Source: Spironucleus salmonicida (Eukaryota). Taken from it: a DNA stretch of 64,000 bases. Made by a program: the position numbers and the translations under genes. Under the pieces are notes generated by a model. The model made no database searches, was not told the DNA's origin, and saw only the letters and a list, made by a program, of their open reading frames with translations. Position 1 is the stretch's first letter, and the number at the start of each line of letters is the position of its first letter. Location of the stretch: positions 806,001 through 870,000 of the forward strand of contig NC_090600.1 of NCBI RefSeq assembly GCF_000497125.1. The letters run 5' to 3'. Below are positions 11,175 through 58,750 of this stretch, piece by piece.

Positions 11175-12340
11175 TAAAGGAGCGGAAATTTATTTTGTAA
11201 TTTAACATATAATAATAAGTTAATTTTTCCGCAAAATGAACACCGAAAGGCTGTCTTTGACAAAACTGCATGCCACACCTTCCATGCAGACGTACAACCG
11301 CCAGCTAGCGTCCTCAGATGCTTCAATGCCGTTCAACGCGATCGGCACATAGCTGGTACCACAAGTTGGGACGATAGTGACGACGAGGTCCGGAAAAGTC
11401 GCATTTTCGGCTATGTAGGACAATGCAGATATCCCAGCGTGCCTAGTACAAAAAGTGAGGTCGCTGTACGCCGAAAAGCCGGTGACTGTGCGCCCGCAGA
11501 AAGTAGAGATCTCGGGCAACGCAATGCGCGGTCTGGTGGGCAGAAAGTGCTGCGAGGACACGGACTGCAGAAACTGGGAGCGCAAGGTGTGAGGTATTGG
11601 TTTTGCACGATTTGTGTTCTGGCAGCCTCGCGCGGGAATGTGAGTTCGCGAAATGGAGGAACTCTGGGCCGAATTCCGCCAGCCTGTGCGTTGTGGGGCC
11701 ATTTTGGATCCATTTAAAGCAATTTGGCCGAAGAGACGAACGGGTGAGAATAAGGTGCGGCAGCAGTTTTCAGGAGACTCCCGGGCTCCCATCCGAGCGT
11801 AATCGCAAGCGAATAAAGTAATAGTGCAAATATACAGTATAATACATAGTTCCGCTTCAACAATGCCCGCGCAGATGGCACAGCGGCGCACTGGCCTGGA
11901 GATGATGTGTGATGGGACGACCGGGAGGGTTTCTGGACATGATGGGTGATGCGAGTAGACAGCCGGTATCTCAGAACGGGATGGGCGGCGGAGTCACAAA
12001 AAGAGATCGCATATGCACGACGTGGGGCTCTGCCAGGGTGCGTGGAAAATATCCGCGAGGCCATGGCTGGTGGGCGGAGCCTCAGGGCTGGAAGGTCGCG
12101 TTAATGGGCACATTTCTGCCGCAATTACCGCAGGCCGAACGCGCAAACGCACAACATGGTGGGTAGCGTTAAATGATTGGTCCCCTCTGGCGACGGCCTG
12201 CTGCAAAAAGATTAAAATGCTGCTAGCCTACCTGCTGCTCCCTTCGCCAGCACGCATCTCGCCCACGCCAACCCCCACGGCACGCAGGGTGCCGCAGATT
12301 CCCCTTCCCGTCCGCTCCACGAACCCCACGAACCCCACCA

Positions 12341-12784
12341 ATGACCGCCCAGCTCTCCCGCCTCCGCAAAGAGCTCGTCGAGTTCCAGCAGTTCCCCGCC
12401 TTCGCCGGCGGCCCGGGCGACGACCTGCGGCACTGGAAGGTGGCCTTCCAGGGGCCCGCGCAGACGCCGTTCGAGGGCGGCACCTTCCACCTCGCCGTGG
12501 CGTTCCCGCTCGAGTACCCGTTCAAGCCCCCGCAGGTGCGGTTCACGAGCCGGGTGTTCCACCCGAACGTGAGCAGCGCGGGCGACATCTGCCTGGACGT
12601 GCTGAAGGCGGAGTGGAGCCCGGTGCTGAGCATCTGCCGCGTGCTGATCAGCATCCAGAGCCTGCTGGACGACCCGAACGCGATGAGCCCGCTCAACGGC
12701 GACGCGGCGCGGCTGTTCCGCGAGAACCGCGCGCAGTACGAGCGGCAGGTGCGGAAGTACGTGCGGGCCTACGCGAGTGAGTGA
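12341..12784 (+). CDS. ubiquitin-conjugating enzyme E2 (Ubc4/5-like), 147 aa
   Basis: PFEGGTF..YPFKPP..FHPNVSSAGDICLDVL..WSP; active-site Cys84. Confidence 0.95.
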   Translation: MTAQLSRLRKELVEFQQFPAFAGGPGDDLRHWKVAFQGPAQTPFEGGTFHLAVAFPLEYPFKPPQVRFTSRVFHPNVSSAGDICLDVLKAEWSPVLSICRVLISIQSLLDDPNAMSPLNGDAARLFRENRAQYERQVRKYVRAYASE

Positions 12785-12794
12785 AGCCTCTACA

Positions 12795-12876
12795 GACTGG
12801 GTGGCCGAGCGGTTAAGGCGATAGCCTGCTAAGCTATTATACTCTGTATGCGTGGGTTCAATTCCCATCTCAGTCG
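12795..12876 (+). tRNA. tRNA-Ser(GCT)
   Basis: Acceptor stem GACTGGG/CTCAGTC, D arm TGGCCGAGCGGTTAAGGC, anticodon arm ATAGC-CTGCTAA-GCTAT, long variable arm, GGTTCAATTCC. Confidence 0.95.
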
Positions 12877-13295
12877 ATTTGCGGGAGCAGAATGGCCGTC
12901 GGAGGCGAGGATCGGCAGCGCAGGTGCGCGATCCTGGCAGCGGCTGGGAAGGCATGCGCAGTCCGCATATATCTGCGGCAGCCTGCGCAGGGCGAGAGGG
13001 ACGTCCCGTGCAGTTTCGCGTGTGGCCGTAAGCTGCAACGGGACGTCGCGAGGCAGCGTCTGCGTACTCAGCCCAGCGGAGTGCGTTATCCCGGCTGCCG
13101 CGCCTTGGGCCTATCGAACGTACTTGGTCGGCATCAATAATGTGCCGAAGTCTCCCGCGCCAGGCCGGGAGGCTGCTAGGAGAGGTGCGCCCGCCCGCAG
13201 CCATTGCGCTGTCTGGTGGGTATTCACTGCTGCCCGGCGGAGGAGGCCACTCTTGCACACTCGGCACGCCGGAGCGGAAACTGAAAATGAAAGGA

Positions 13296-13985
13296 TCACT
13301 ATCTGACATAGACGCCGCAGTCGGGGACGATGACGCTGGGAGGGCAGTTGGTGTCGGGGATGACACAGTCATCGCAGTTCTCGAGGCCGCACTTGAAGAT
13401 GAAGTTGGGTCTGGTGGCGAGGCCGGACTCGCAGCTGAGGTCGGCGTTGCAGTCGACGTGCATCTCGACGAGGAACTTGAGGGCGACGAAGCCGGTGGGG
13501 ATGGTGCCGCTAAGCTGGTTGCAGGTGAAGTGGACCTCCTTGAGGAAGAGCAGGTTGCCCATGCAAGTAGGGATGGCGCCGGTGATGTCGTTGTTGTTCA
13601 TGTAGACGAACTGCACGTGGGCGAGCTGGCAGATGCACTGTGGGATAGCACCAGTGATGCCGGCATTGTTGGCCTGGAGGTACTGGAGCCCGGTGAGCTT
13701 GCAGACCGAGGCGGGGATGGTGGTGGTCATCTTCTGGTCGTTGAGGTACAGGGACTTGAGCACGGGGAAGGAATCAAAAACATCGGCGAGCTGGCCCGTG
13801 AGCCCGAAGCCGCTGAGGTCGAGCCCCACGACGAAGTCCTGGCTGTTGCAGGTCACGCCGGCCCAGGTGCACACGGAGGCGCTGGTGGTCCAGCCGACGG
13901 AGCCTTTCCAGCTCGCACCGCCGTTGGCCGCGTAGATGGCGTCAAGCGCTTGGCGCTGTGTGAGGACTGCCAGGATGGAAATCAT
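13296..13985 (-). CDS. CWP1: cyst wall protein (Giardia CWP1-like, LRR plus Cys-rich tail), 229 aa
   Basis: TQRQAL..GASW..CTWAGVTC..LDLSGFGLTG..LQYLQ..IPTC..FLKEVH..CNQLSG; ends TAG(Q) TGA. Confidence 0.9.
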
Positions 13986-14551
13986 TGAGGGAAGGGAAAC
14001 GTGGTAGGGGCGCGTAGGGCCGCGTGGTGTAGGGTGGAGGAAGGGAGGGAAGGCATATGTCCTGGAAGGGTGCCTGGGCGCAGTCCCGGTCCTGCTGGGC
14101 TGGCGCCGCTAGCACATCGAGATGCAGCGGCATAACCTGTCTAGGCCCAGTCCGTGGTCTGCCTTTTATACTGATGGCCCGCCCACATCAAGCATACTGC
14201 GCTCCTGGATAGGTCGGGTTGAGAGCATCGTACCGCCCGCCGCCGAGATATACCTGCAGCGTACGGCATCCCCTCCTGCACGTTGAGGGTATTACGATAT
14301 AATGTAAATACTTGCGTAAATTTTTTATATTGTTTCCGAAAATAGTTACTCATGAATACATTAATAATACATTAATAAAACCCCTCATGGAAAAACTAAA
14401 ATTGCAAAAAATAATATCATTGAATATATATAATATTTTAATATATTTTAAATGAATTATACATATTATAATTGATTTAATAAACAAGATCGTTCGTAGC
14501 ATTTCTCGCCTATTTACTTTATATAATATTATGATATAAAAATCTACCAAA

Positions 14552-17500
14552 ATGATTCTATCGCATGCGCTTATAGTATTGTATACTGCCGTGGACTTCA
14601 CGAAGCTCAACAACGTCTAGAATGAGAACTTTGTCCTGAACAACAATATCACGCTGAACATCTTAAACCAGCCCTTGATCGACCAGTTTGTTGGGTCCCT
14701 CTCAGGTGCCCGAAACACGCTTAAAATCACGGAAATACAACCTGGGGGCTCTCTCTTCCAGTAATTCGGCGGTAGTTTCAGCAGCGTAAGTGTAATTGTC
14801 GAATTCGAAATCGGGTACTCCATCGTGCTCGCGCAGGAGTTGCGTGGTGCTCAGCTGCGTGACGCAGCGTTCCGTATCTAGAGTGACGGCGTGCGCAACG
14901 CCCCTGAAATTACATTTTTCAGCGAAATCACAGACGCGACGCTTGGGCGCTGCGTGTTCACCATCGTGTGCAACGCGGCTCCCAGCACGTCATACAGGAT
15001 TTTTGGGATCGCCTTTTCTATCAATAAACTACATACAGAGGGACTTGAGGTGCATATTATTGCCAAAAATGCGTTCCAAGTTGCCGGACTCTGCCGATAA
15101 CTCGGTGCCACATTCCCAGCGCTAGTAACCCTGGGAGGACAGGAAATTGAGGAGGTATTTGGTATAGCGCTCGCCAGTTCACAGCCCCTGAACGCTCTGA
15201 TAGTTCGTATTGTTATACGTGGGATGCGCCTGGTCTGTGGTATCGCGCGGGATGTGTGTGGGGTCGAAAACTCACAAATTTTGCTCATTTTCACCTTGAA
15301 AGAGGGCACTACGGTCATATACGGTGTAGCACGGTCAATTGAAGGACCGTTACATGAGTTATAATTGCAGATAGGTGGAATTTTCCGCTCCAATATGCCC
15401 GCCGAACTCGCGTTTTTGGGTGGTGATCTAGGCGCAAAAACAACGATTTCTCACGTTGCGATTCTCGCAGAGTTCAGCCTCACGGGTGGAGCCCTTAAGA
15501 TGGCGCTACTGGCATCTGGATCTGCTCTTGGCGCCGAGGTACGCTTTCTGGCGATGAACGCATCTATAGAGGCCGAACATAGCGCTTTGTAGCCGATCTA
15601 CTGTTTCTCTGCTGCGGTATAAGATGTAATTATCGAAATGTTGGCCATGAATTTCTCGCTACAGGGGTCGATATCGGGCGACTTTGGAGGTTTCGGAATC
15701 GCTCCCTCGTTAGTGGGGTGCAAATTTACGAATTTTACGATCAATTTCGCGTTGAGAATAAGCGAAATTTCAGGCACCTTGACCTACTGCGCACTGGGTA
15801 TTTATGTGGAAGAAATCAGAATCAACAACGCATCGTTTTACAACTACGTCTTAATAAGTTCTGCTGCTAACGCGATCGGTAGCACAATCTTCGGACTCGC
15901 CAAACAGCTGGTGCGGTCCGACTTGAATTATGTGATCGTATAAAACTAGATCTAGGTAAGATATGCGTCAATTTAGGCATTTGCTGGCCTCGCAGACCAG
16001 CTCATGGATGTGACGATTAACATTCTTGTGCTCTGTGGCACCGTAAATTTGCAGAACCAAGGACAGATTTGCGGAATCGCCAGAATGGGGAGAAAATCGT
16101 ATTTTGTGAGCCTCATGATCAACTTTCATATCGAGAGTTCCAACAACGCAGAGTGTATCTTGTTTTTCGATATTTGCGACAGTAACTAGTTCATAAATAT
16201 TGTCGAACAGGCGAATAACATGCGCTGTCTGAATGACGTGAAATACATCATAACCGACACAAAAAATAACAAGGTCAACTATTTTGCAATGCAAGGGTCT
16301 GGCAAAGAACGTATTTTGTAGACCATCAGCAGGGCCCAAATGAAAGCTGGAGCAGAGGTTAACGAGCTCTTGAAAACGGACAAGTGGGAAGTTGACTCTA
16401 AAAACGATGGCCTTGTGCGCCTTAAAAATTTCTTCTCCGTGAAATCTACGTAATTTGCAGAGGAGGCGAATCCAGAAATTCAGCCGTTCACTCAGTAGCA
16501 AACGACGGCCTTTTTGTACATAAACATTAAAAATCAAGAGAACCTCTGCTTCGATAACTGCTAGGGTACATTTGACGGTAAATAATTAGTATGTAAACAG
16601 GGATATACTGGCGTCGGTTGTGAAGAGTTTGAGTGCAAGGTAGATTTCTGCTAAGATGGTGCTACATGCAATAGAGTTCACGGCTGCGAGTGTGTATCCG
16701 GAAAAGGTGGGGTCTAGTGTGAGATCGACCTGTGTCCATTCTGCCTAGGTGGATATTCTAATTGCGATACGAAATTTAGCTTTCCAGTCTGCATAAACGA
16801 CTAGACAACAACTTGTCATCATGGTATTGTAGTTAATAACTTTTGCGCATGTTCAGACGGATACACAAGTGTTAGCGGTATTTGTGATAAATTTGCTTGT
16901 AAGGACTCGGATGATTGCAACGGAAATTTATGTAAGGACGAGATCTGCCACTGTGTGAGTAAAATGGGTGGAATAAGCTGCTAGTTTTGCACAACGCCTG
17001 GTTAACGGGATTGTAAAAATATATGCTCAACAGGTAGCTGCTAGTACGGTACTGCGTGTGTTTATTTGACGGGAAATAGTGGGATTTGGGAATGTTCAGC
17101 GTGTATGGTAGGTCATATTCCCCCATTGTGTTAAGACTGTTTTGTTGGCTATATTAAGCATGGTGATGCCTGTCTTTAAAAATGTGAAGAGTGTCATACC
17201 GGGGACTGCTATTTTCTAGAACCATGTGCTCAGCCAGCCGCACAATGTAATACTAAATGCGTATCATGCTTACCAGGCATCAGCGGCGAAAGATGTGACA
17301 AATGCCCAGTTGGCTAGCAATTTTATGAATACTCTTGCTACCCCTTAGAAGACGAGAAGCTAACCAATGGAGTGTGCATTAAGATTGAATCGAAGACTAT
17401 CTGTTTTTCTTGCCTTGCAGATTTTATTTTGATTGACGATTAATGCATTTTCTAGTGTCTTCCAACAAATTGTATTAATGGTGAGTGTTAACCCGACCAA

Positions 17501-20500
17501 TCTTGTCTGTGTAAACGCTACGCCCTGGGAAAACATTGTGATTCTTGTTAGTCAGGTACGGGTAGCTTTATGGGATAATGCCTTTAAATATGTAATGGAT
17601 GTAACGGAGATTGTTACTATGATCGTGGAGAGATAGTATGTTCTTCCTGCAATGATAATTTTTAAGGACCACCATGTTAGGGATGTTGGACAGGGTTTAT
17701 CAATATAGGGACTGAATGCCTAGAAGTCTGTCACAAATGCTAAGGTGATAGATGCTATATTACTATTTCTGGTAACTTTGTATGTTTGGGCCCATGCTAA
17801 GCCGGATATATCTTGGACGGTTGCTTTACTTGTGATACATCTAATGGGTTTGTGGCGGCTCTTGGCGGATGTTTTCAGCAATGCACCACGTGCTCCCAGG
17901 GGACCTGCTTCCAGACTCCATCCGGAATACAGTGTTCGAGCTGCTCTGGATCGTTCACTGGCCAGTAGTGCGATGTTTGCCTGGATGGTTTTGTCTTCGC
18001 TGAAGGCACGTGCCATACATAGGTAACCGACGATGAATGCTACATTGACGGGACTGGGAATATGATCTGCTTGCAATGCCTCGCAGGCAAGGTTCTCGTC
18101 GACCAGCAATGTCTAGTAAAGTGCGTGCTTCCAGACTGCGCGGGGGAGTGCTATCACAAGGTCCCCTCATACTTTTGCCGCAGCTGTTACTTCGGGTTTA
18201 TATTCCATGAGAACAAGTGCTACCCGCCCACTTCAAACCCGAACGGGGACTGTTTCGTTCTTCAAGACAGAACGTTATGTAGTTGCTACAAAGGGTACGC
18301 TGGACCCTCTTGTGACGAGTGCTCGGAGCTGGAGAAAGGGGGCAGCTGCTACTACCGAAACGACGTAGCCACCGGGTCTTGTTTCAGTAACGCCGACGAC
18401 TCTCTGGATAGCTTCTGCCAGCAGTGCTAGTACAACTACGCGATGCCGCTCTGTCTCAGCTGCGCAATGGGATACGCAATGGATTCATCTGGTGAGTGCA
18501 ACGAGTGCCAGCCTGGTTACACCAGCTCCAATTCTCTGCCTCCGAGCGAGAGAGCAATTATTGGAGATAATAGGTGTCTGATTTCGTGCGCAGATTGCGC
18601 TCAGGGGAACTGCTTCTATGCGGGAGAGTCGATCTTATGCGCGTCCTGTTCGCCTGGCTACGCTATTTCCACAAACTGTCTCTAGTGCGAGGATGGCTTT
18701 GCTGAGTTCGGGGGCTACTGCCTTACCTCTGGTACCAGTTCCTGTGGGGAGGACAACTCCGGCGATACGTATTGTACAACGTGCGGGCCATAGTAGTAGT
18801 CATTCAACTGCTCCTTGTGCACAGTAGAGGGCACTTTCGGGTCGGATTGTAAGCAGCACGCAACTCACTTCCCCGGAGAGTGCTACTAAACTAGTAGCAC
18901 CGTAACATGTACAGATGCACCGTGCCTTAGTTTTGACATAGCATCTAATTAGTGTCTTATCTGCAGGTCAGATCTTATAAATATAAAGGGATATTGCGGA
19001 ACGATTACTCTCCCACAAAACGACAAACTGCGAGGTAATTGCATAAATGTAGGTACTTACTAGGTATGTGGTACGTGTTAAAAAGGCTGGTCTGGAAATA
19101 TCTGTTCAGAATGTGATAAAGGTTATATAAGATGTTAATGTAATACTGAATTATTTTAACATTGTTGTTGTCCGCTATTACCATTATTGAATGGAGTATG
19201 TTTTACTACTCAACTAACCTCGATAATCTGTGAATACTGTGGACCTAGGTATGAATTATTATAAAAATAATGCGTTCAATAAAATATCTCTATTACTAAG
19301 TTAGTTACAATAGTTTTAGTTCCCATATTAACAGGATTTTTATTATTAATAATTTTGGTATTGTTGGTTAAATTATTTAAAGTAAAAAGAAGATAAATTT
19401 TTATTTCGGTGAAGCGAATCATCAAGCGTATTGGGCCGCATCTTGTATTTGTTATATTATCCTAGGCATTAGCAATTATTATTGCAATCCAGGATGTTTA
19501 TATTGGCGACTTTTTCATGTAAATTTCAGTAAATATCTTCTCAATGATACCATTCATACTGGCATTCTTCTTTTTAGCTGTTCCAACATATAAGTAATTT
19601 TTCTATAATCTACCGTCGCACTTCTTTCTTTTTGTATTATCAGCACTAATCGAACTTAGTTTCCATTTCACTTAGTATATAGTAGTTTCTGAGGTAGTAT
19701 AAAATTTTGGGGAGTAAATTTATAAACTGGCTGGACCCCTTATAACACTACTAATGTGTATATGTCTTGCTGGATTCCGGTTTAAATCTTAGTAAAAATT
19801 ATCAGTTTTTATAGCAGTTACTGTCCCACTCATATCTTAGATTATGTATGCAATTTTAGATTCTGAATAGTCAGGTTATTTTTCAGAATCATCTATTTGG
19901 AATATTATATCTGGATAAATGATGGTTACTATAGCAATCTTGTTGAATGGTGTGTAATTTTACTTGTTTGACCTCATTTTAGGGAAATATGGTGAAATAG
20001 AGGCTATTGGACGGCTTGCATTAGCTTCATTCATGGTAAATAGCATGATTGGGCTTACAAATCCTGGAGAAATAATCAATTCCATACTTTAGTATGATAT
20101 ATTCTTTTCTAGTCTATGTACGTAAATATTTTTTAACTTTATAAACATAATAATAATGATGCATATTTCAGCAGTAGAATTTGGAATTAACCTAATTTCA
20201 TCAGCTATTTGGGCATAATTTATATCAGCAGTAGGTGAATTTTATATCGCTAGTAACAATAGTTACAATATATCCCTTATATCTCTTATTTTATAGTCTT
20301 TATCATTAGTTATAGTTTTCGTTAGTTTACTATATTTTAATATAAGAAGCTCATATTGGGATCATCGTAACAATGACAAACTTTCTAAAGAGTCTATAGC
20401 AATAACAGGTGTAAATGAATTCATTAAATCCAGAAGATAATATAAACAACTGTTCAAAAAAATGCAATAAAATAAACTTCATGACAATTTGAGCTAAGTT

Positions 20501-20800
20501 ACACATAATTAAGTACTAAAAGATATGTAATCTAAATTAAATTAGATGAATTAACCATACAACTAAACTACACTGAGGTAAAATACTGGAAGTTGCTTTA
20601 TGTAAGATATAGTAAAACAAAAATCATCTAGATAAGTGTATTACCTTAAAAATAATGACACATTAATTACTAAGCTACCGCAGAAACAAAACAATAAAAC
20701 TGTTGGTTAATTGTAATTGGCCTCAGATTAAATTTGTTAAAGCTAAGATTTATCTTTTCATAGTATTCATTAATACATGGACTAAAATAAATTTAAGTGA
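14552..20800 (+). CDS. giant cysteine-rich membrane protein A, 2082 aa: N-terminal beta-rich domain, EGF/CxxC repeats, TM helix, ~10-TM SLC35F/DMT-like domain
   Basis: Track fragments at 14891, 15365, 15638, 16004, 18062 and 18443 share one frame linked by TAA/TAG; ends AAG TGA. Alternative in-frame ATG at 14531. Confidence 0.85.
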
Positions 20801-21427
20801 TTATTACATATAATAATGATATAATTTGTATAAAAATTTATCTTAAGATTAACTATAAAGTGTACTATTATTTCCATATCAGATATAAACTAAGAATAAA
20901 TTAACTGTTAATATAATGATTTATTAGTATTATTATACAGGCCTCTTTATTATTTTACTACAAAATTAAAGCAATACATTATTTTTATTTTGTTATGTTC
21001 TATTACACTTAATATTTAAAAATATATTATTACATTTTTAAAATACTAATTATAAAACATAGAATTTAATTACGAATTTGTTTATCATTTATTTTAATTT
21101 TATGATCTGATTATATCGTAATATCCTCAACGTGCAGGAGGGGATGCCGTACGCTGCAGGTATATCTCGGCGGCGGGCGGTACGATGCTCTCAACCCGAC
21201 CTATCCAGGAGCGCAGTATGCTTGATGTGGGCGGGCCATCAGTATAAAAGGCAGACCACGGACTGGGCCTAGACAGGTTATGCCGCTGCATCTCGATGTG
21301 CTAGCGGCGCCAGCCCAGCAGGACCGGGACTGCGCCCAGGCACCCTTCCAGGACATATGCCTTCCCTCCCTTCCTCCACCCTACACCACGCGGCCCTACG
21401 CGCCCCTACCACGTTTCCCTTCCCTCA

Positions 21428-22117
21428 ATGATTTCCATCCTGGCAGTCCTCACACAGCGCCAAGCGCTTGACGCCATCTACGCGGCCAACGGCGGTGCGA
21501 GCTGGAAAGGCTCCGTCGGCTGGACCACCAGCGCCTCCGTGTGCACCTGGGCCGGCGTGACCTGCAACAGCCAGGACTTCGTCGTGGGGCTCGACCTCAG
21601 CGGCTTCGGGCTCACGGGCCAGCTCGCCGATGTTTTTGATTCCTTCCCCGTGCTCAAGTCCCTGTACCTCAACGACCAGAAGATGACCACCACCATCCCC
21701 GCCTCGGTCTGCAAGCTCACCGGGCTCCAGTACCTCCAGGCCAACAATGCCGGCATCACTGGTGCTATCCCACAGTGCATCTGCCAGCTCGCCCACGTGC
21801 AGTTCGTCTACATGAACAACAACGACATCACCGGCGCCATCCCTACTTGCATGGGCAACCTGCTCTTCCTCAAGGAGGTCCACTTCACCTGCAACCAGCT
21901 TAGCGGCACCATCCCCACCGGCTTCGTCGCCCTCAAGTTCCTCGTCGAGATGCACGTCGACTGCAACGCCGACCTCAGCTGCGAGTCCGGCCTCGCCACC
22001 AGACCCAACTTCATCTTCAAGTGCGGCCTCGAGAACTGCGATGACTGTGTCATCCCCGACACCAACTGCCCTCCCAGCGTCATCGTCCCCGACTGCGGCG
22101 TCTATGTCAGATAGTGA
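21428..22117 (+). CDS. CWP1: cyst wall protein, copy 2
   Basis: Protein identical to 13296-13985. Confidence 0.9.
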
Positions 22118-22536
22118 TCCTTTCATTTTCAGTTTCCGCTCCGGCGTGCCGAGTGTGCAAGAGTGGCCTCCTCCGCCGGGCAGCAGTGAATACCCACCAG
22201 ACAGCGCAATGGCGGAGGGCGGGCGCACCTCTCCTAGCAGCCTCCCGGCCTGGCGCGGGAGACTTCGGCACATTATTGATGCCGACCAAGTACGTTCGAT
22301 AGGCCCAAGGCGCGGCAGCCGGGATAACGCACTCCGCTGGGCTGAGTACGCAGACGCTGCCTCGCGACGTCCCGTTGCAGCTTACGGCCACACGCGAAAC
22401 TGCACGGGACGTCCCTCTCGCCCTGCGCAGGCTGCCGCAGATATATGCGGACTGCGCATGCCTTCCCAGCCGCTGCCAGGATCGCGCACCTGCGCTGCCG
22501 ATCCTCGCCTCCGACGGCCATTCTGCTCCCGCAAAT

Positions 22537-22618
22537 CGACTGAGATGGGAATTGAACCCACGCATACAGAGTATAATAGCTTAGCAGGCTATCGCCTTAA
22601 CCGCTCGGCCACCCAGTC
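22537..22618 (-). tRNA. tRNA-Ser(GCT), copy 2
   Basis: Reverse complement of 12795-12876. Confidence 0.95.
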
Positions 22619-22628
22619 TGTAGAGGCT

Positions 22629-26321: not shown

Positions 26322-26569
26322 TTAAGAATCAAAAAGTAAAAAATTATAAAGTAGTCTATTTAACATAGATATAATAAATAAATAATCAAGATATAAATAT
26401 ATCTTTAATATACTTCATTTGGAATCATAAATAACAACTATAGTTTTCGTCAATATTGAGATATAAAAAAAGCTATGCTTAAAATAAAAATAAAGGAAAT
26501 AACCATTTATAATGATCATTCTATCAGTATTATGATTAAAATCATGAAAAATATATATATTTGGAAATG

Positions 26570-26738
26570 AATGGGATAGCCCTCATCAAGTTGAGGTTAA
26601 TCTATAAAGATTCCTCTGGCAGGATGACTGTCTCTTACATCTTCCTTAGCGTGTGCTAAGGATTCCATTACTAGAGATACTTTCTATCGAAGATATGAGG
26701 AACTTCCCCTGAGCGAACTCAGAACCTGCCTTCCCATT
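26570..26738 (-). ncRNA. RNase MRP RNA (compact, ~169 nt)
   Basis: P1 AAUGGGA/UCCCAUU; P2 GGCAGG/CCUGCC; P3 CUGAG-UUCG-CUCAG; P4 AG(U)UCCUC/GAGGGCU; P8 GAUA-GAAAG-UAUC (GARAR loop); ACAGUCA (ANAGNNA) before P2'; P19 AAUCU-UUAU-AGAUU. Confidence 0.85.
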
Positions 26739-51197: not shown

Positions 51198-52513
51198 TAG
51201 TGCGCAGAGCACGCCCCGCGCGCGGCCGAGGCACATTTTGACCGTTCCAAATTCCGAATGCGCTCCATCCGCAAGACGCTGGCCCGAAAGCAGAGGCAGA
51301 TCACCGACAACGAGTACGGGGCGCCGAAGCTCCTGCCGATCGCGGAGGACCTGCCCCACCTAGAGTCGCTGGGCACGGTCTGCCTCGACCGGGACGACAA
51401 CGGGGACGGGACGCTGCTGCTGGGGAACAGGGACATCTCGAGCCAGAGCATGATGCAGGGGCCGTAGTGAGACATTCGTTCACTAGAATCCCGCCGCACC
51501 GGGCTGCACCTGCCCGTCTGAGAACTGCCTAGGCAGGGGAGCGCGCAGCGAGGGCAGCCTGGCGGACTAGCCGAGAGTCTCCACGGTATGGAGCGCACCC
51601 AGCTGTGGCGGGAGCTGGAAGCCGCCCCGGAGCAGCATGGAGGCCGCGTTGCGCCGGATCCGCTGCCGGTGCGGGGACTGGCTGACCATAGGACTGGGCT
51701 TCTGGGGGCTCCGCGGCGGTACCTGAATGTAGTCGAGGTTGCACCCGGCGGGGGTGAAGGTGAAGAAGTTGAGCGGGGACGTCATTCTGCCGCCGCGGGA
51801 ACCACTGCTCGCGGTCCTGGCCGCAACCCAGAGAAACCGAAAATCCCGTTTCTCCAAAACCGCGAATAGTGACAAATACCTCACTGCGTGGTATCCAGCC
51901 CGCCAGGCTTAGAGTGGTCCGAGGAGTCCGTGGTAACCTCGAGGTTGGACTTGATCACCTGCGTCTTGGCGTAGGAGCTGTTCACGAGGCTCTCCAGCAG
52001 GCTCGTGTTGCGGTTGGCGCCAATCTTGCTCAGCTGCAGGAAGTTCACGGACTGGTTGGAGAGGAAGTTCCCCGTGTCGAACGGCTCCTCCACAGGTTCC
52101 TTCGTCTTGTTCACCGGGGTGCGTGGTGCGCTGGGCAGGTCTTCGCCGCGCTCGGACTCCTCGGCAAACCGGCCCCCGTGGCGCTCGAGGGCAAAGCGAT
52201 GGACGAGGCCGCCAATGGCGAGCAGCAGGATCGTCAGGGTCTGCACAGTGAACACGCAGTTGAAATTATAAGTGGGGTCAGCGCAGTAGATCCAGATGAA
52301 CGAGGCGATGATTGCAAGCGAGCGCACGGTGCCGCTGAAGATCGCGAAGGACCCCCCGCGGCACACGGCGTGGTGCGCCTGCACGAACGCGTACAGCGGC
52401 ATCACCATTCCGCGCAGCGCCCCGTTACGTGTGTAGCTCAGCAGCCCTGTGTAGTGGTTGTTCAGCATCGCAGTGGGCAGCCGCGAGCCCACAGATAGCG
52501 TAATAAATTTATA
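51198..52513. repeat. inverted segmental duplication IR3, left arm (1316 bp)
   Basis: Reverse complement of 56868-58207 (sum 109381 outside a 24-bp indel near the outer end). Confidence 0.96.
51258..51470 (+). CDS. small hypothetical protein, 70 aa (inside IR3)
   Basis: MRSIRKTLARK...MQGPQ*; high GC3; ends TAG TGA. Confidence 0.5.
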
Positions 52514-53476
52514 CCAGCTTAAGAATATTATAATAGATGTAACTAGACCAATTAAACCGTACATCCATACATTACGATAAATGTTAGACATTCCACTTTT
52601 ATGGATAATAGATAACCTCGTACTTTAAACGTATACATCGTATAACTATCCACTGAAAATACAGCTAAGTCTCATACAATAATAATATAAACAAATGCTC
52701 AAAAGCACTACTTCCTCTCGGTTTACTTTTAATGCAATTACTATAACCAACTCTTCTGCTGCATCAAATGCTAAGAACTTTAAGAATGATAGAAGGCACT
52801 GTAATTATAGAGCTGGCCGGAATGGTTTCAATATAGAGAATTACATATAAAGATAACGCTGATCTCTGAGGATAATTGGTATAAAAATCATTCCCGGTAA
52901 GGTATATGAAACTATAAGAGTGATATTCTATGATACACTAAAAAAAGATAATACACAATATAATACTATGCTAAGTGTTGGACTTATTAGGGCTGCTATT
53001 ATTTACGACATATTCCATCGCTCTGCCTTTCCTACCTCAAACAAATGAGATATAGCTGCCTGTGAAAAAGGTGCTAAACTAAATAATATTAGATTGTTAA
53101 ATCTAGAATACGCTCCAAATCCTATAAAAAATAGTATTGAAATCAACAGATAGTGAATAATGGAGTAGTTAAAAACAACCCTACCAGCGTTAATTTATGC
53201 AGTTCCTAGTATTGGAGAAATAATTTCAAATGCAACTTTTCCTACGAGTTATGGAACTATTAATATAATTTCATAGTTTGTGATCAGGTTAAACGTATTA
53301 ATAGCATTGCTTTCGTCAAATTGTAAACAAAAAATAAAAATAAAAAATGCTCTGAAAATAACTAAAAAATGATACATAGGAGATGCGAATTAGTATTATT
53401 ATACTCTATCTTTTAGTTCATATACTAAAACATCAGTTGAAGTAGATGATTCTACTGAACGAGAATACTGTGTCAT
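51881..53476 (-). CDS. multi-pass membrane transporter, MATE-like, 531 aa
   Basis: Code-6 ORF from MTQYSRS with many hydrophobic segments; continues into track ORF 51881-52591. Family assignment tentative. Confidence 0.7.
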
Positions 53477-53812
53477 TTTAAAATAGTAAATAAAATTATA
53501 TATAATTCATATTTTTCAAAATTTAACTGTAAATCAGTTAAGTTGTTTGTTACTTTATGACTTGATTAATCTGCCAAAAATTATTTGGAATCTACATTTA
53601 AACTAATGTACTAGTAATAATATTATCATTCAAAATTAATTAACAATTATAAATAATTCTTTTTAATTGACTATATTGAAATGTACTAATTACTTATTAA
53701 ACACACCGGATTACATAAATTTAAAGACATTTTTAATAAATGAAAAAAAGATTTAGTATGAATAATTAAAATAACAGATATAATATTGAACTAGTAAAAA
53801 TAAATTGGTCAT

Positions 53813-54505
53813 TCAAGATTTAATGGCCTCAAACGTTTTTGATGGTTACTATTATTAATTAAAAACAGTGTCATACTCTAATTGCTTAACTAATTTCAAT
53901 GAGCAAATAAACTAATCTCCTGATAATTATTAATTCTTTTATATTATATTAAGTTAGGCTGCAAAATCAAATAACATTAGTTATACTATTTCCCGATAAT
54001 GTCTCAGACTATCCTAAGTTTTTTCAACCTTTTGAGCCTGATTAATAATTTATAAAGTTAATTATTATAATAATTGGTATCTATTCTTTTTACTACGCTC
54101 CAATTTAGCTTATTACTCTAATTTATCCAAAACAATATTTTACTAATGCAGGATTTTACTTAGCTTAGCTAGCTACTTTTCTTTTTATTAAATCTATTTT
54201 GATATTAATTTGATATCAACCATTTGCTTTTTGATATTGGTGGTAAAAATTAAATATGCATTATTAAAAGTTTTATTTGCATATTTTGTCTATTCATAAG
54301 TAAATTTACAGTACTATTAAAATAAATTTTAAATTGATGATTAAACGTTTATTCTGCGTGCTTTATTAAATTGCAACAACATTTATCTAGTAAACTACTT
54401 ATATTTTATAGATTAGCTACAAGACATTTTTGCTACTTGATATAATTATTGCTAAACTTTGTATCTTTGTATCACTTAAATCTTAATTGGTGTAAGATCA
54501 ATCAT
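53813..54505 (-). CDS. hypothetical coiled-coil protein, 230 aa
   Basis: MIDLTPIKIQ...EAIKS*; Q/K/E-rich. Confidence 0.6.
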
Positions 54506-55530
54506 TTCTAATCTTATATTATGAGATGGTCATTATTTTGAATAATGGAATATATAGCTTATATATAATAAAATAGTTAAAAACAAATTGAAAATTATAA
54601 ATTTCGCCTCATCTATTCATGAATCTTCTCTAGCAGGTCTCAAGGGGGTTAATTAACCTAGAACCGTAACCTCCCCATCTTATTGCTCTAACTAGCCTTA
54701 CATACGTTTTAATCTTAAGTCATACTTCCGACAACATGCACATTAGACTGTTTGTGATAAAAACCCATACAAACCAACAAATAGAACCATTGCTATAATA
54801 GCTAATGAATCAAATAACCTGGCACCTTATTCTTACATTTTTAATGTTTATATATGTAAGTAATATAAGATATATTTTTATTTCATTTCCTAGTATTTTT
54901 AAACTGTTGACTAAATTACATAGTATGCACAAATATAAATTAACTTGCTAAAAAATTAGACTACATATAATATTAATAATCAAAATAGGTGCAAAACAAA
55001 AATAAATACATTTCATCACTTTAAACGTTTGATGCTAAGCGCTTCCAATCGTTACCGTTATGCGCGTACACCTGTACTCTCGATTATAGGTTTTTTCTCA
55101 GGATAGCGATCTACATATGCACCACCGTTAAAATGCATTTTAACAAAAGGAATTTATCTATCAATTACACGATAATTAAAATAAAGAGGTTATGATTATT
55201 TAACATGTGATTCTACATCATATCCTCGATGCTACGTCTTATAAAACATTTACTATGCCGATGTTGAGCGAGAAATATTAATATTCTAGCTTAGTTACTT
55301 TGAGTTGAAAAAGTTTGTCTAATTTAAAGTAAGCGTCTTAGACATTTATTTTAAGTAAACAGTCTTAGTTTATGGTGTTAAGTAAGGATCTAGTTGATTA
55401 AGCTACCGAATATTCATTTAGCAAAATGATAATATCAATAATACAAGTTATATTATATAATAAAAATGATATACTAATGCATTAAGAGTATTATATTATT
55501 AAGTTAATTAAAAATTTAACTTCTATAATC

Positions 55531-56769
55531 ATGCCATTTGACGATATTCCATCTATTTAAACAACCATTGCTGCCATTTCAGATAATTATAAAAATTATA
55601 TAATACCCTATCACATTGATCTATAATTAAACCCTCCTCCGATGCCTAACCGTCGTTTTACAATTTTAATTTTAGGTAATTAAAATGCAGGAAAATCCTC
55701 TTTTATTAACAATTGTATTGGTTAAAAACTGCTTAAAACTGGACATGGAGCCACAACAAACCATATCTCAATCATTATTCCAGGAGCATCACGTTAAACT
55801 TTGTCATTGAATTAAGCTCAGAATTTGGTGCCGTTTACCAATCTTCCCCCATAATCTACAGTTGAAATATTTGATGGTTATAAGAAAAATGACTAAGATC
55901 TATAGAATTCATAATTTTTATCATAAGTTTCAGCAATTTTTGAAGTTGAAAATTAACCAAAATCTATATCGCCTTTTATCTTCATTGATACGCCAGGATT
56001 CGTTGAAAAAACTGACTTTTAACCGCTTAAATAGCTAATTAAGCAAGTGGACTTAATTTTGCTTTTTGTAGAATCCTCTAAATTTTAGCTTACAAACTAG
56101 ACAATTGAATTAATTAATCATATAGTTAACAAAAACATTGATATGAAAATTATTCTTTCAAAAATTGATTTGGTAGGAAGTAAATTTGAGTATGTTTAAA
56201 ATGTTGTTTCCTGTAGTTAAATGATACAACGATGCATTCAATTTAAAGAATTTGATATCTATCCAATTACACTACCTAAATTTTCTTCTGCAAAATCTAA
56301 AGTTCAAAGCGAATTAAATGGGAGCGGTATGTCACTCGAAAAATTAGAAGCACCATTTATTGTAAGCAATTTCGACTGTTTGAAGGATTTTGAAGATGAA
56401 ATGGAAAATCAAATTATAATTTAATTCAGAAATTTGCTTGATAGGTTTAAAATTGACTGCAAAAATCTTAATAGAAGTATCAAGGACTACGAACAGACAT
56501 GTAAGTAGATCAAAAAATTTACTATAAAGATGTGGAGTTTAAGAGTATTTTTAATATGTTCTTTGATAGGAATAGTTATGATAAAATTTAATAAAAACAC
56601 CTAAATCTTTAGTAACTTAGTAATTATAAATATTATATCGTTGATAGCTAGTTTATTTATCTGGAAAAAACCCCTTGTTGGTATGCAAAAAATTGGTGAA
56701 ATGGAAAGCCTTGTTGATGGAAACTTGATGCAGTGCGTTAAAAAATTAGAGGCTGTTTAAATTGAGTGA
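55531..56769 (+). CDS. dynamin/EHD-like P-loop GTPase with C-terminal TM hairpin, 412 aa
   Basis: LGNQNAGKSSFIN, TGHGATT, FIDTPG, SKID; two hydrophobic segments near the C-terminus. Confidence 0.8.
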
Positions 56770-56867
56770 GGAAGTTCTGTTTTTTACTATATATTTTATG
56801 TAAGAATAATAGAATTTTCATCAAAATTTTGATACTGCACATTGAGTAAAATTTAATAAGGGATTTT

Positions 56868-57500
56868 TATAAATTTATTACGCTATCTGTGGGCTCGCGG
56901 CTGCCCACTGCGATGCTGAACAACCACTACACAGGGCTGCTGAGCTACACACGTAACGGGGCGCTGCGCGGAATGGTGATGCCGCTGTACGCGTTCGTGC
57001 AGGCGCACCACGCCGTGTGCCGCGGGGGGTCCTTCGCGATCTTCAGCGGCACCGTGCGCTCGCTTGCAATCATCGCCTCGTTCATCTGGATCTACTGCGC
57101 TGACCCCACTTATAATTTCAACTGCGTGTTCACTGTGCAGACCCTGACGATCCTGCTGCTCGCCATTGGCGGCCTCGTCCATCGCTTTGCCCTCGAGCGC
57201 CACGGGGGCCGGTTTGCCGAGGAGTCCGAGCGCGGCGAAGACCTGCCCAGCGCACCACGCACCCCGGTGAACAAGACGAAGGAACCTGTGGAGGAGCCGT
57301 TCGACACGGGGAACTTCCTCTCCAACCAGTCCGTGAACTTCCTGCAGCTGAGCAAGATTGGCGCCAACCGCAACACGAGCCTGCTGGAGAGCCTCGTGAA
57401 CAGCTCCTACGCCAAGACGCAGGTGATCAAGTCCAACCTCGAGGTTACCACGGACTCCTCGGACCACTCTAAGCCTGGCGGGCTGGATACCACGCAGTGA
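56868..57500 (+). pseudogene. 5'-truncated copy of the last ~210 codons of the MATE-like gene
   Basis: Matches 51881-52513 but lacks the first ~320 codons and the native promoter. Confidence 0.7.
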
Positions 57501-57910
57501 GGTATTTGTCACTATTCGCGGTTTTGGAGAAACGGGATTTTCGGTTTCTCTGGGTTGCGGCCAGGACCGCGAGCAGTGGTTCCCGCGGCGGCAGAATGAC
57601 GTCCCCGCTCAACTTCTTCACCTTCACCCCCGCCGGGTGCAACCTCGACTACATTCAGGTACCGCCGCGGAGCCCCCAGAAGCCCAGTCCTATGGTCAGC
57701 CAGTCCCCGCACCGGCAGCGGATCCGGCGCAACGCGGCCTCCATGCTGCTCCGGGGCGGCTTCCAGCTCCCGCCACAGCTGGGTGCGCTCCATACCGTGG
57801 AGACTCTCGGCTAGTCCGCCAGGCTGCCCTCGCTGCGCGCTCCCCTGCCTAGGCAGTTCTCAGACGGGCAGGTGCAGCCCGGTGCGGCGGGATTCTAGTG
57901 AACGAATGTC

Positions 57911-58123
57911 TCACTACGGCCCCTGCATCATGCTCTGGCTCGAGATGTCCCTGTTCCCCAGCAGCAGCGTCCCGTCCCCGTTGTCGTCCCGGTCGAGGCA
58001 GACCGTGCCCAGCGACTCTAGGTGGGGCAGGTCCTCCGCGATCGGCAGGAGCTTCGGCGCCCCGTACTCGTTGTCGGTGATCTGCCTCTGCTTTCGGGCC
58101 AGCGTCTTGCGGATGGAGCGCAT
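57911..58123 (-). CDS. small hypothetical protein, copy 2 (IR3)
   Basis: Identical to 51258-51470. Confidence 0.5.
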
Positions 58124-58750
58124 TCGGAATTTGGAACGGTCAAAATGTGCCTCGGCCGCGCGCGGGCGCGAACTCGGGGTTGGGCGCGGGGCGTGCTCTG
58201 CGCACTAGCAGATGACATCATGTCCATGCCACGAGTAGCCTACATGCGCTAATTATCACTATTATAGCTACAATGTCCCTTTACAGCAATGCTACTTTGG
58301 CTACCTGCCTTAAGATCCAGTTATAAGTCACACTGCTATCAGGCTATTTTACGCCTTAGCACTGAAAACCTAAATAGAGCTAAAGCTTAGTCCTCTTGTC
58401 TACACCGCTAAACTCATGCACGGATTCACCGCGTAGTATCATATGACGCATTCTAGCTTATAATTTGCTCAAACCTTTATACTCACCGGAAAACCTCATA
58501 ATTTATCTATTTTCACCAATTCCTGCACTACCTCGATACCCACGTTTTAAATATTTCAACCCTCCAAATTAGCTCATAATTAACCCCCACACAACCCCAT
58601 CCAACCCCCTCCACCCCCCTCCACACCCCAATTACCACCCACACCACAAACGTAAATTCCACATCCTTCGCCATTTTCTATTTTTATTTTCTATTATTAC
58701 ATACTATTATTATACATTAATTTTCACTATACCACATTTTCCCCTTCCAA

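What the first reader, a model, noticed from the sequence alone, without database searches (positions are those of the whole stretch)
11561..58207. Three independent inverted-repeat cassettes within 47 kb: a possible system of invertible, self-homogenising segments
Seen: IR1 (11561-14303/21110-23852) encloses essentially one gene, giant surface protein A. IR2 (25158-26321/28079-29242) encloses the MRP RNA and two small genes. IR3 (51198-52513/56868-58207) encloses the 5' part of a transporter, a coiled-coil gene and a GTPase. The arms carry ordinary host genes (CWP, E2, tRNA, cathepsin), with no transposase. Inference: recombination between arms would flip each spacer without breaking any gene, and arm-to-arm conversion would keep the arms near-identical. 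This suggests a recurring palindrome-like architecture for dosage of encystation/virulence genes and orientation switching. The few substitutions in IR1 and the indel in IR3 argue against a simple fold-back artefact.
Basis: partly seen in the sequence, partly recalled or inferred. Interest (0 to 1): 0.8.

Follow-up and report, generated by a model that had tools for sequence, protein, structure and literature searches.

The report
GC-rich inverted gene duplications in Spironucleus
Three real, near-identical inverted duplications sit in this fish-parasite chromosome; they look like self-correcting palindromes of a kind already common in this group of parasites, not a dedicated DNA-flipping switch.

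Summary
Three inverted-repeat pairs lie at the stated coordinates (2743, 1171 and about 1316 nt; 99.8-99.9% identical) around unique spacers of 6.8, 1.7 and 4.4 kb. The DNA reads with TAA/TAG as glutamine, and its cyst-wall-protein paralogues are named Spironucleus salmonicida.

Short-read contigs of runs X1-X4 (one sample) show all eight arm junctions of IR1 and IR2. I laid no reads on IR3.

The IR1 and IR3 arms are sharp GC islands: 62-63% GC against 27-39% in the spacers. One gene crosses an IR3 arm boundary, and its GC3 jumps from 0.24 to 0.84 there.

My best reading is long-lived palindrome-like duplications kept alike by GC-biased arm-to-arm gene conversion.

Flipping would break no gene, but it would also change no gene. 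I found no recombinase, no MRP RNA and no switch logic, and spacer orientation could not be tested.

Identical inverted gene pairs are known in Giardia, and GC-rich duplications covering 19% of the genome are published for S. salmonicida. The kind is therefore known; the sharp GC step is the new detail.

The parts
11561..14303 (.). IR1 left arm (2743 nt, 61.9% GC)
21110..23852 (.). IR1 right arm (reverse complement of the left arm, 6 mismatches)
12341..12784 (+). Ubiquitin-conjugating enzyme E2 (GC3 0.98); mirror copy at 22629-23072 on the minus strand
   Evidence: Pfam UQ_con E 8e-45; GC3
12795..12876 (+). tRNA-Ser(GCT); mirror copy at 22537-22618 on the minus strand
13296..13985 (-). LRR cyst-wall-type protein, 229 aa (GC3 0.89); mirror copy at 21428-22117 on the plus strand
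   Evidence: Pfam LRR families; 90% and 59% identical to proteins named 'Cyst wall protein [Spironucleus salmonicida]'
14304..21109 (.). IR1 spacer (6806 nt, 39% GC). It holds one gene, 14531-20800 (+): 2089 aa, 156 Cys, 32 CXXC motifs and about 8 C-terminal TM-like segments
   Evidence: no Pfam family
25158..26328 (.). IR2 left arm (1171 nt, 38.6% GC) with a papain-family protease gene at 25385-26236 (-)
26329..28071 (.). IR2 spacer (1743 nt, 25.9% GC). It holds a 341-aa ORF of unknown function at 26770-27795 (+); no RNA family
28072..29242 (.). IR2 right arm with the protease copy at 28164-29015 (+)
51198..52513 (.). IR3 left arm (1316 nt, 63.4% GC). It holds the 3' 633 nt of the membrane-protein gene
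51881..53476 (-). 531-aa orphan membrane protein with a flippase/MATE-like predicted fold. Codons 1-321 lie in the spacer (GC3 0.24, 11 TAR-Gln codons); codons 322-531 lie in the arm (GC3 0.84, 0 TAR-Gln codons)
52514..56867 (.). IR3 spacer (4354 nt, 26.7% GC). It holds the 5' part of the membrane-protein gene, a 230-aa Q/K-rich ORF at 53813-54505 (-) and a dynamin-like GTPase at 55372-56769 (+)
56868..58207 (.). IR3 right arm (1340 nt) with 24 extra nt at 58167-58190. It carries a 5'-truncated copy of the membrane-protein gene: 210 identical codons, first ATG at 56913
17171..19122 (+). Direct-repeat conversion tract. This 1952 nt is 99.0% identical to 36016-37967 in the paralogous giant gene (33160-39648), while the flanks are only 45-65% identical
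   Evidence: contig depth 1.55-1.9x

Best explanation
These are three palindrome-like inverted segmental duplications in a Spironucleus salmonicida chromosome.

Each arose when a 1.2-2.7 kb block was copied in inverted orientation a few kb away. In IR3 the left arm is the native copy, and the right arm holds a 5'-truncated gene fragment.

The inverted arrangement persists because recombination between inverted copies cannot delete anything. The arms are kept near-identical by repeated arm-to-arm gene conversion. For the cyst-wall gene, conversion probably also involves other family members.

In IR1 and IR3 this conversion is GC-biased. It has driven both coding and non-coding arm DNA to 57-70% GC and GC3 to 0.84-0.98, and has nearly removed TAA/TAG glutamine codons. 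IR2 shows no such enrichment and is probably young.

An occasional crossover would flip a spacer, but this changes no gene product and no promoter-gene linkage. Inversion is therefore a neutral by-product, not a switch.

Shown: the repeats, their junctions in independent contigs (IR1 and IR2), and the composition steps. Inferred: conversion, its GC bias, the relative ages of the repeats, and neutral inversion.
For: 1. Repeats and identities.

2. Contigs of four runs from one sample.
- All four IR1 junctions appear: contigs covering 11000-11590, 14259-17200, 19633-21154 and 23823-25187.
- All four IR2 junctions appear: contigs ending at 25187, spanning 26292-28108, and starting at 29213.
- Each contig stops about 30 nt inside an arm.
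- The inner-edge variant 14289/21124 is phased with its own spacer end in all four runs.
- The IR2 arm is one 1164-nt contig at 1.8-2.4x the depth of its flank.

3. Composition of arms and spacers.
- IR1 arms are 0.62 GC against a spacer of 0.39.
- IR3 arms are 0.63 GC against a spacer of 0.27.

4. GC3.
- E2 is 0.98, the cyst-wall gene 0.89, and the arm part of the membrane gene 0.84.
- The 15 gene segments outside the arms range from 0.23 to 0.67.

5. The step inside one gene.
- GC3 rises from 0.24 to 0.84 at the arm boundary.
- TAR-Gln codons fall from 11 to 0.
- GARP residues rise from 16% to 24%.

6. This is one gene.
- The Atlas model (pTM 0.68) aligns to MurJ, Polysacc_synt and MatE clusters over residues 8-436, TM 0.61-0.64, across the boundary at residue 321.
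- TM-like segments lie on both sides of the boundary.
- No paralogue exists that could have donated the GC-rich part.

7. Non-coding arm DNA.
- Segments 11561-12310, 12761-13285 and 13900-14260 are mostly 0.5-0.68 GC with no 3-base periodicity.
- The published intergenic mean is 25.4% (PMC3916229, passages).

8. GC changepoints fall within 4-20 nt of 6 of the 8 IR1/IR3 boundaries.

9. Five of the 9 arm differences lie within 33 nt of an arm end.

10. Ectopic conversion is visibly active nearby: a 1952-nt tract at 99.0% identity sits inside paralogues that are otherwise 45-65% identical.

11. Published context.
- S. salmonicida duplicated regions average 44.7% GC against 30.7% for the rest of the genome (PMC9509377, passages).
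- Human Y palindrome P6 shows GC-biased arm-to-arm conversion with rare inversions (PMC3723533, abstract).
Against: - No outgroup, second strain or polymorphism data were available. Conversion and its GC bias are therefore inferred from composition and were not observed.
- IR2 arms are not GC-enriched: protease GC3 is 0.35 and non-coding arm DNA is 0.30 GC.
- The two outer boundaries of IR1 show no sharp GC step. The changepoints lie about 300 nt away with a likelihood-ratio statistic of 20, and the left flank 11112-11560 is already 0.49 GC.
- No decayed homology lies beyond any arm end, as an old, shrinking repeat might leave.
- Depth of the IR1 arm contig 11561-12824 is only 1.0-1.4x that of the spacer contig, not 2x. 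I attribute this to composition bias. The 26%-GC IR2 spacer runs at 0.6-0.9x of its flank, but the bias at 62% GC was not measured.
- The fold continuity of the membrane protein rests on one language-model structure. My AlphaFold run was unusable.
- I laid no reads on IR3.
Confidence: 0.6

Rival explanations
1. These are recent one-off inverted duplications of DNA that was already GC-rich, with no ongoing conversion. On this view the near-identity simply reflects youth, and the breakpoints fell at existing GC/AT transitions.
For: - Arm ends are abrupt, with no decayed homology outside them.
- IR2 shows that a near-identical pair can exist without GC enrichment.
- GC-rich genes (GC3 up to 0.67) occur outside the arms.
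- The left flank of IR1 is GC-elevated although it is unique.
Against: - It needs three independent breakpoints to coincide within 4-20 nt with GC steps.
- One of these lies in the middle of a single-fold orphan gene, where GC3 jumps from 0.24 to 0.84.
- Arm genes have the three highest GC3 values of the 19 gene segments measured.
- Differences between arms cluster at the arm ends.
Confidence: 0.2
2. This is the first reader's proposal: a recurring system of invertible cassettes that the cell uses to switch orientation or to tune the dosage of encystation and virulence genes.
For: - Three pairs lie within 47 kb, and the geometry allows gene-preserving flips.
- The arms hold cyst-wall and protease genes in two copies.
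- The IR1 spacer holds a cysteine-rich surface-type protein.
Against: - No recombinase was found among the 29 ORFs scanned.
- The arms are kilobases long, not short recombinase sites.
- Each spacer gene carries its own upstream region, and the split membrane gene rejoins an identical 3' part. A flip therefore changes nothing.
- The duplicate content of the window (>=15.2%) is about the published genome average of 19.2%.
- E2 and tRNA-Ser are housekeeping genes.
- Orientation and expression were not tested.
Confidence: 0.05
3. This is an assembly or polishing artefact: one or more arms do not exist, or their identity was inflated by polishing with multi-mapped reads.
For: - Depth of the IR1 arm contig is only 1.0-1.4x single-copy depth.
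- I laid no reads on IR3.
- All four runs come from one sample, which may be the sample the window was assembled from.
Against: - For IR1 and IR2, both ends of each spacer contig run into the arm sequence in opposite orientations, and two different outer flanks join the same arm. A linear molecule must therefore cross the arm twice.
- The IR2 arm has 1.8-2.4x the depth of its flank.
- Arms collapse into single contigs in a 31-mer graph, so they are near-identical in the reads themselves.
- Unique spacers of 1.7-6.8 kb are not what fold-back chimeras give.
Confidence: 0.05

Closest known systems
Giardia 'inverted pairs' of identical vsp genes. G. lamblia WB has 14 pairs (PMC2996952, passages); G. 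muris has 7 pairs (PMC7641422, passages)
   Same: - Same group of organisms (diplomonads).
- Identical ORFs lie head-to-head or tail-to-tail.
- A few kb of unique DNA lies between them (2190-3847 bp in G. lamblia).
- Flanks are near-identical up to a point of abrupt divergence a few hundred bp from the coding region.
- In G. lamblia no identical gene pair was found in any other arrangement. Here all three >99.7% pairs are inverted as well.
   Different: - The arms here carry non-VSP genes: E2, a tRNA, a cyst-wall protein, a protease and a gene fragment.
- Spacers span a wider range, 1.7-6.8 kb.
- The passages I read mention no GC-island signature for Giardia.
S. salmonicida 'duplicated regions' (PMC9509377, passages)
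   Same: - Same species.
- Near-identical duplications, often of one gene, cover 19.2% of the genome.
- They average 44.7% GC against 30.7% for the rest of the genome.
- The authors suggest gene conversion near cysteine-rich gene families.
   Different: - The passages I read do not give orientation, spacer structure or boundary-exact GC steps.
- The paper has no occurrence of words beginning 'palindrom' or 'invers'.
- Only repeats of >=2 kb were counted, so IR2 and IR3 fall below that threshold.
Human Y-chromosome palindromes, e.g. P6 (PMC3723533, abstract)
   Same: - Inverted arms more than 99.9% alike around a unique spacer.
- Identity is maintained by arm-to-arm gene conversion that is GC-biased.
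- Crossover resolution, which gives inversion, is rare.
   Different: - The Y palindrome arms are much larger, by my recollection (no call checked this).
- Conversion there was demonstrated on a phylogeny; here it is inferred.
- The GC shift here is far larger (GC3 from 0.24 to 0.84).
Long near-perfect inverted repeats of gene pairs in C. elegans (PMC1803023, abstract)
   Same: Gene pairs plus intergenic DNA form inverted repeats whose structure is conserved more than their sequence, which implies active maintenance.
   Different: That work had cross-species evidence, which is lacking here. It is a different lineage, and the abstract reports no GC signature.
Site-specific invertible switches of bacteria and phages (Hin, Gin, Fim, shufflons).
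   Same: A DNA segment bounded by inverted repeats that can flip.
   Different: - Those use short repeats and a dedicated recombinase.
- Flipping changes which gene or promoter is connected.
- None of these features is present here.

Membership tests
Palindrome with arm-to-arm gene conversion (Y-chromosome type) | Two inverted arms more than 99% identical around a unique spacer | tested here: met
   Identities are 99.78%, 99.83% and 99.92%; spacers are 6806, 1743 and 4354 nt
Palindrome with arm-to-arm gene conversion (Y-chromosome type) | Identity maintained over evolutionary time (concerted evolution seen against an outgroup or a phylogeny) | not testable with these tools
   No whole genome, second isolate or related species DNA was available. 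The only indirect signs are the GC islands and the arm differences clustered at arm ends
Palindrome with arm-to-arm gene conversion (Y-chromosome type) | GC bias of conversion | tested here: inconclusive
   For: composition steps at 6 of 8 IR1/IR3 boundaries and a within-gene GC3 jump from 0.24 to 0.84. Against: IR2 shows none. The direction of substitutions could not be polarised
Palindrome with arm-to-arm gene conversion (Y-chromosome type) | Spacer found in both orientations (inversion isomers) | not testable with these tools
   Only short-read contigs could be laid, and they end at the arm borders
Diplomonad inverted pairs of identical genes (Giardia vsp type) | Identical ORFs in head-to-head or tail-to-tail orientation with a few kb between them | tested here: met
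   The E2, cyst-wall and protease ORFs are duplicated in inverted orientation; spacers are 1.7-6.8 kb, against 2.2-3.8 kb in Giardia
Diplomonad inverted pairs of identical genes (Giardia vsp type) | Flanks near-identical up to an abrupt divergence point close to the coding region | tested here: met
   Arm ends are abrupt, with no homology beyond them in 400 nt on each side. For example, the protease copies diverge 92 nt upstream of the start codon and 227 nt downstream of the stop
Diplomonad inverted pairs of identical genes (Giardia vsp type) | The paired genes are variant surface protein genes | tested here: not met
   The arms carry E2, tRNA-Ser, a cyst-wall-type LRR protein, a papain-family protease and a transporter fragment. 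The cysteine-rich gene sits in the IR1 spacer, not in the arms
Site-specific invertible switch (inverton or shufflon) | A dedicated recombinase gene in or beside the segment | tested here: not met
   No recombinase, integrase or transposase family was found among the 29 ORFs scanned against Pfam. Smaller ORFs were not scanned
Site-specific invertible switch (inverton or shufflon) | Flipping reconnects a promoter or alternative coding segments | tested here: not met
   Spacer genes keep their own upstream DNA, and the split membrane gene rejoins 210 identical codons
Transposon or foldback element | Terminal inverted repeats with a target-site duplication and transposition genes | tested here: not met
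   The bases outside the two outer ends of each pair share no direct repeat. No transposase was found
Assembly fold-back artefact | Junctions absent from independent reads, with no unique spacer | tested here: not met
   All eight junctions of IR1 and IR2 are present in contigs of X1-X4, and the spacers are unique. I laid no reads on IR3

The most novel reading that the evidence does not exclude
In S. salmonicida, near-identical inverted duplicates act as long-lived conversion sinks. Mitotic arm-to-arm gene conversion with a strong GC bias has raised GC3 from about 0.24 to 0.84-0.98 and has all but removed TAA/TAG glutamine codons inside the arms. GC islands would then mark duplicated DNA genome-wide, which would explain the published 44.7% versus 30.7% GC contrast. 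The spacers would exist as two flip isomers in the cell population. This would be an unusually strong and cleanly bounded case of GC-biased gene conversion in a protist with no known sexual cycle.
Probability: 0.4. Interest if true: 0.6.

Novelty: new member of a known kind. Interest (0 to 1): 0.4.

Why it matters
It turns a suggested 'invertible cassette system' into something more ordinary but useful.

These repeats are further examples of the near-identical inverted gene pairs typical of diplomonads. They also carry an unusually clean natural experiment. In one gene, the two thirds lying outside the repeat are AT-rich and the third lying inside it is GC-rich. If GC-biased conversion causes this, three things follow:

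- It explains why duplicated DNA in this fish pathogen is GC-rich.
- It warns that identity between copies is not a clock for duplication age.
- It warns that codon usage and amino-acid composition of duplicated genes (cyst-wall proteins, proteases, surface proteins) are shaped by a neutral repair bias, not by selection.

I found no paper linking Spironucleus with 'biased gene conversion' in the held library.

Tried and rejected
- Whole-genome self-alignment: no genome is held for this window.
- One Pfam call with 147 ORFs was too large. I replaced it with selected sets.
- Homologues of the boundary-crossing membrane protein, to test colinearity: only the protein itself turned up in both large libraries. 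Shorter and longer length ranges were not searched.
- AlphaFold2 without an alignment gave mean pLDDT 38.5 and pTM 0.24, which is unusable, so I ran no fold search on it.
- Decayed homology beyond the arm ends: none collinear. The IR1 outer flanks scored z 4.9, but for an off-register 30-nt match.
- RNase MRP or any other RNA in the IR2 spacer: nothing at E<=1. An 8-nt conserved-core motif I recalled is absent there; its single window hit is at 41071 and is expected by chance.
- The giant spacer protein has no Pfam family.
- Small ORFs in the IR3 arm at 51150-51870 have no family above cut-off.
- Copy number of the IR1 arms from contig depth is ambiguous at 1.0-1.4x. Contig depth varies with composition, so I do not rely on it.
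- Earlier notes of this scan on the same genome: none.
- Other repeats in the window: there are none apart from the giant-gene tract.

Full report
**Observation**

A seed-and-extend scan and a BLAST self-comparison both find exactly three long inverted pairs in the window.

- IR1: 11561-14303 / 21110-23852. It is 2743 nt long with 6 mismatches and no gaps.
- IR2: 25158-26328 / 28072-29242. It is 1171 nt long with 2 mismatches, both within 7 nt of the inner end.
- IR3: 51198-52513 / 56868-58207. A 1299-nt core has no mismatch. The right arm has 24 extra nt (58167-58190), 17 nt from the outer end.

The only other long repeat in the window is direct. It joins the two giant genes: 17057-19172 matches 35902-38017 at 97.2%.

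**Organism and genes**

Long ORFs open only when TAA and TAG are read as glutamine (NCBI table 6; compare).

The LRR protein in the IR1 arms is 90% and 59% identical to two proteins named 'Cyst wall protein [Spironucleus salmonicida]'. Both sit on a contig of the same length (1,732,135 bp) as the window's own protein. I therefore take the window to be S. salmonicida nuclear DNA.

- The IR1 arms carry a ubiquitin-conjugating E2 (Pfam UQ_con, E 8e-45), tRNA-Ser(GCT) and the cyst-wall-type protein.
- The IR1 spacer carries one 2089-aa protein with 156 cysteines, 32 CXXC motifs and about eight C-terminal hydrophobic segments. It has no Pfam family.
- By the motif definition in PMC3916229 (passages) this protein resembles the CRMP-2 class.
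- The IR2 arms each carry a complete papain-family protease gene.
- The IR2 spacer holds a 341-aa ORF of unknown function.
- The IR3 left arm holds the last 210 codons of a 531-aa membrane protein, whose first 321 codons lie in the spacer.
- The IR3 spacer also holds a 230-aa Q/K-rich ORF and a dynamin-like GTPase.
- The IR3 right arm holds an identical copy of those 210 codons with no 5' part. The frame opens just after the stop codon (TGA at 56767-56769) of the neighbouring GTPase gene, and the first ATG is at 56913.

**Are the repeats real DNA?**

Four public runs from one sample hold the region. I laid their contigs on 11000-29800.

- Every arm border of IR1 and IR2 appears as a contig end about 30 nt inside the arm. 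This is what a 31-mer graph gives at a repeat.
- For IR1 the contigs cover 11000-11590 (one run listed), 14259-17200 and 19633-21154 (all four runs), and 23823-25187 (two runs; a third run crosses that border in a longer contig).
- For IR2 the contigs end at 25187, span 26292-28108, and start at 29213.
- Both ends of each spacer contig enter the arm in opposite orientations. A linear molecule must therefore traverse the arm twice.
- The inner-edge variant (14289 against 21124) is phased with its own spacer end in all four runs.
- The IR2 arm is one 1164-nt contig at 1.8-2.4x the depth of the unique flank.
- The conversion tract shared by the giant genes runs at 1.55-1.9x.

Against this, the IR1 arm contig 11561-12824 runs at only 1.0-1.4x the depth of the spacer contig. 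Depth in these runs varies with composition: the 26%-GC IR2 spacer runs at 0.6-0.9x of its flank. I therefore do not read copy number from it, and I could not measure the bias at 62% GC.

The runs may come from the sample the window was assembled from, so this is support from another data type, not from another isolate.

**The unexpected feature: the arms are GC islands**

- IR1 arms are 61.9% GC against 39.3% in the spacer. IR3 arms are 63.4-63.7% against 26.7%. IR2 arms are 38.6% against 25.9%.
- Genes in the IR1 and IR3 arms have the three highest GC3 values of the 19 gene segments measured. E2 is 0.98, the cyst-wall gene 0.89, and the arm part of the membrane gene 0.84.
- Fifteen segments outside the arms range from 0.23 to 0.67. 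The IR2 protease is 0.35.
- Only 1 of the 27 glutamine codons in those three arm genes is TAA or TAG. In the 15 segments outside the arms, 346 of 645 are.
- Arm DNA with no 3-base periodicity (11561-12310, 12761-13285, 13900-14260) is still mostly 0.5-0.68 GC.
- The published intergenic mean is 25.4% (PMC3916229). The enrichment is therefore not a codon-usage effect.

A two-segment likelihood scan places the GC changepoint within 4-20 nt of six of the eight IR1/IR3 borders.

- IR1 inner borders: offsets of -14 and +15 nt, exactly at the last arm mismatch.
- IR3 borders: offsets of -20, -13, +13 and -4 nt.
- The two IR1 outer borders show only a weak step about 300 nt away.

**The within-gene step**

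In the 531-aa membrane protein, GC3 is 0.24 over codons 1-321 (spacer) and 0.84 over codons 322-531 (arm).

- The switch falls inside one 60-codon sliding window at the border.
- GC1 and GC2 also rise, from 0.35 to 0.55 and from 0.32 to 0.45.
- TAR-glutamine codons fall from 11 to 0.
- GARP residues rise from 16% to 24%.

The protein has no detectable relative in either large protein library, so no paralogue could have donated the GC-rich part. It looks like one gene.

- The ESM Atlas's own model (pTM 0.68, pLDDT 0.63) aligns with MurJ, Polysacc_synt and MatE flippase clusters over residues 8-436 at TM 0.61-0.64. That span crosses residue 321.
- Hydrophobic segments lie on both sides of the border.
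- This is a single line of structural evidence. My AlphaFold run without an alignment failed, with pLDDT 38.5.

**Interpretation**

The simplest account has three steps. The duplicated part of an originally AT-rich gene became GC-rich after duplication, together with the rest of the arm. The process stopped where homology stops. Both copies moved together.

That is the expected footprint of repeated arm-to-arm gene conversion with a GC bias, as demonstrated for human Y palindrome P6 (PMC3723533, abstract). Three further observations fit this account.

- Five of the nine arm differences lie within 33 nt of an arm end, where conversion tracts reach least often. The alignment rule itself allows a few mismatches just inside an end, so this is weak support.
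- Ectopic conversion is plainly at work 3 kb away. The two giant paralogues share a 1952-nt tract with 19 mismatches inside sequence that is otherwise 45-65% identical.
- IR2 is as identical as IR1 and IR3 but is not GC-enriched. Identity therefore does not track the compositional 'age'.

The rival is a recent duplication of blocks that were already GC-rich. It is not excluded, and I give it 0.2. It must explain a mid-gene GC step and three independent coincidences between breakpoint and changepoint.

**Invertibility**

It would also change nothing.

- The spacer genes keep their own upstream DNA.
- The split membrane gene would rejoin 210 identical codons.
- No recombinase was found among the 29 ORFs scanned.

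I see no switch logic. Whether both orientations exist could not be tested, because contigs stop at the arms. I put detectable isomers at roughly one in three. That estimate rests on general knowledge of recombination between kilobase-sized inverted repeats, not on any result here.

**Comparison with what is known**

The architecture is that of the 'inverted pairs' described in Giardia lamblia (PMC2996952, passages).

- There are 14 pairs of identical vsp genes, head-to-head or tail-to-tail, with 2190-3847 bp between them.
- Their flanks are identical up to an abrupt divergence 139-729 bp from the coding region.
- No identical genes occur in any other arrangement.

G. muris has seven such pairs with genes in the intervening DNA (PMC7641422). 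I did not test it.

For S. salmonicida itself, the chromosome-scale assembly paper reports three things (PMC9509377).

- 19.2% of the genome lies in duplications of >=2 kb and >=95% identity, mostly of one gene.
- These regions average 44.7% GC against 30.7% elsewhere.
- The authors suggest gene conversion around the cysteine-rich gene families.

By the same criterion at least 15.2% of this window is duplicated, so the cluster is not exceptional.

Neither that paper (no word beginning 'palindrom' or 'invers') nor the 2014 genome paper (no word beginning 'inverted') discusses inverted architecture. No paper in the held library pairs Spironucleus with 'biased gene conversion'. I did not read the supplements of these papers, and they may list the duplications.

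**Verdict**

They are not a dedicated invertible system and they hold no MRP RNA.

These are new members of a known kind. The boundary-exact GC step is the one detail worth following up genome-wide.

Noticed in passing
17171-19122 and 36016-37967: The two giant cysteine-rich membrane-protein genes (14531-20800 and 33160-39648) share a 1952-nt tract with only 19 mismatches, inside sequence that is otherwise 45-65% identical. A second short tract near 19400-19700 is 84-98% identical. This looks like ectopic gene conversion between direct paralogues 18.8 kb apart. In gene B the tract is 46% GC against 27-29% for the rest of the gene.
   Followed up: partly
56766-57500: The right arm of IR3 carries a 5'-truncated copy (210 codons) of the membrane-protein gene, with no in-frame ATG before 56913. 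A probably non-functional fragment is kept 100% identical to the working copy.
   Followed up: partly
11112-11560: The unique left flank of IR1 is already 49% GC, and the GC changepoint lies about 300 nt outside the arm. The matching right flank (23853-24081) is 30% GC. I have no explanation; an earlier, longer arm or a promoter region are both possible.
   Followed up: no
51200-51800 (mirror in 57600-58200): Strong 3-base GC periodicity suggests a small unannotated coding region in the IR3 arms downstream of the membrane gene. No Pfam family was found for the candidate ORFs.
   Followed up: partly
12795-12876 and 22537-22618: Contigs of runs X1-X4 break at the tRNA-Ser(GCT) gene and continue into other sequence (loose ends at 12880 and 22533). 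Further copies of this tRNA must therefore lie elsewhere in the genome.
   Followed up: no
13296-13985: The cyst-wall-type protein is a mosaic relative to its 90%-identical paralogue P0003. The first 32 and the last roughly 60 residues are identical and the middle has diverged. Summed contig depth near 13776 is several-fold single copy in three of the four runs. Both fit a multi-copy family that exchanges sequence; PMC3916229 reports eight highly similar cyst-wall candidates.
   Followed up: partly
58167-58190: The 24-nt insertion in the right arm of IR3 lies in a run of CG-rich near-repeats (the CGCCCCGCGC type). It looks like replication slippage.
   Followed up: no
2001-6000: This stretch is very AT-rich (20-21% GC) with no convincing gene among the ORFs I looked at.
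   Followed up: no
26329-28071: The IR2 spacer has 0.6-0.9x the contig depth of its flanks in all four runs. This shows that depth in these runs depends strongly on composition.
   Followed up: no
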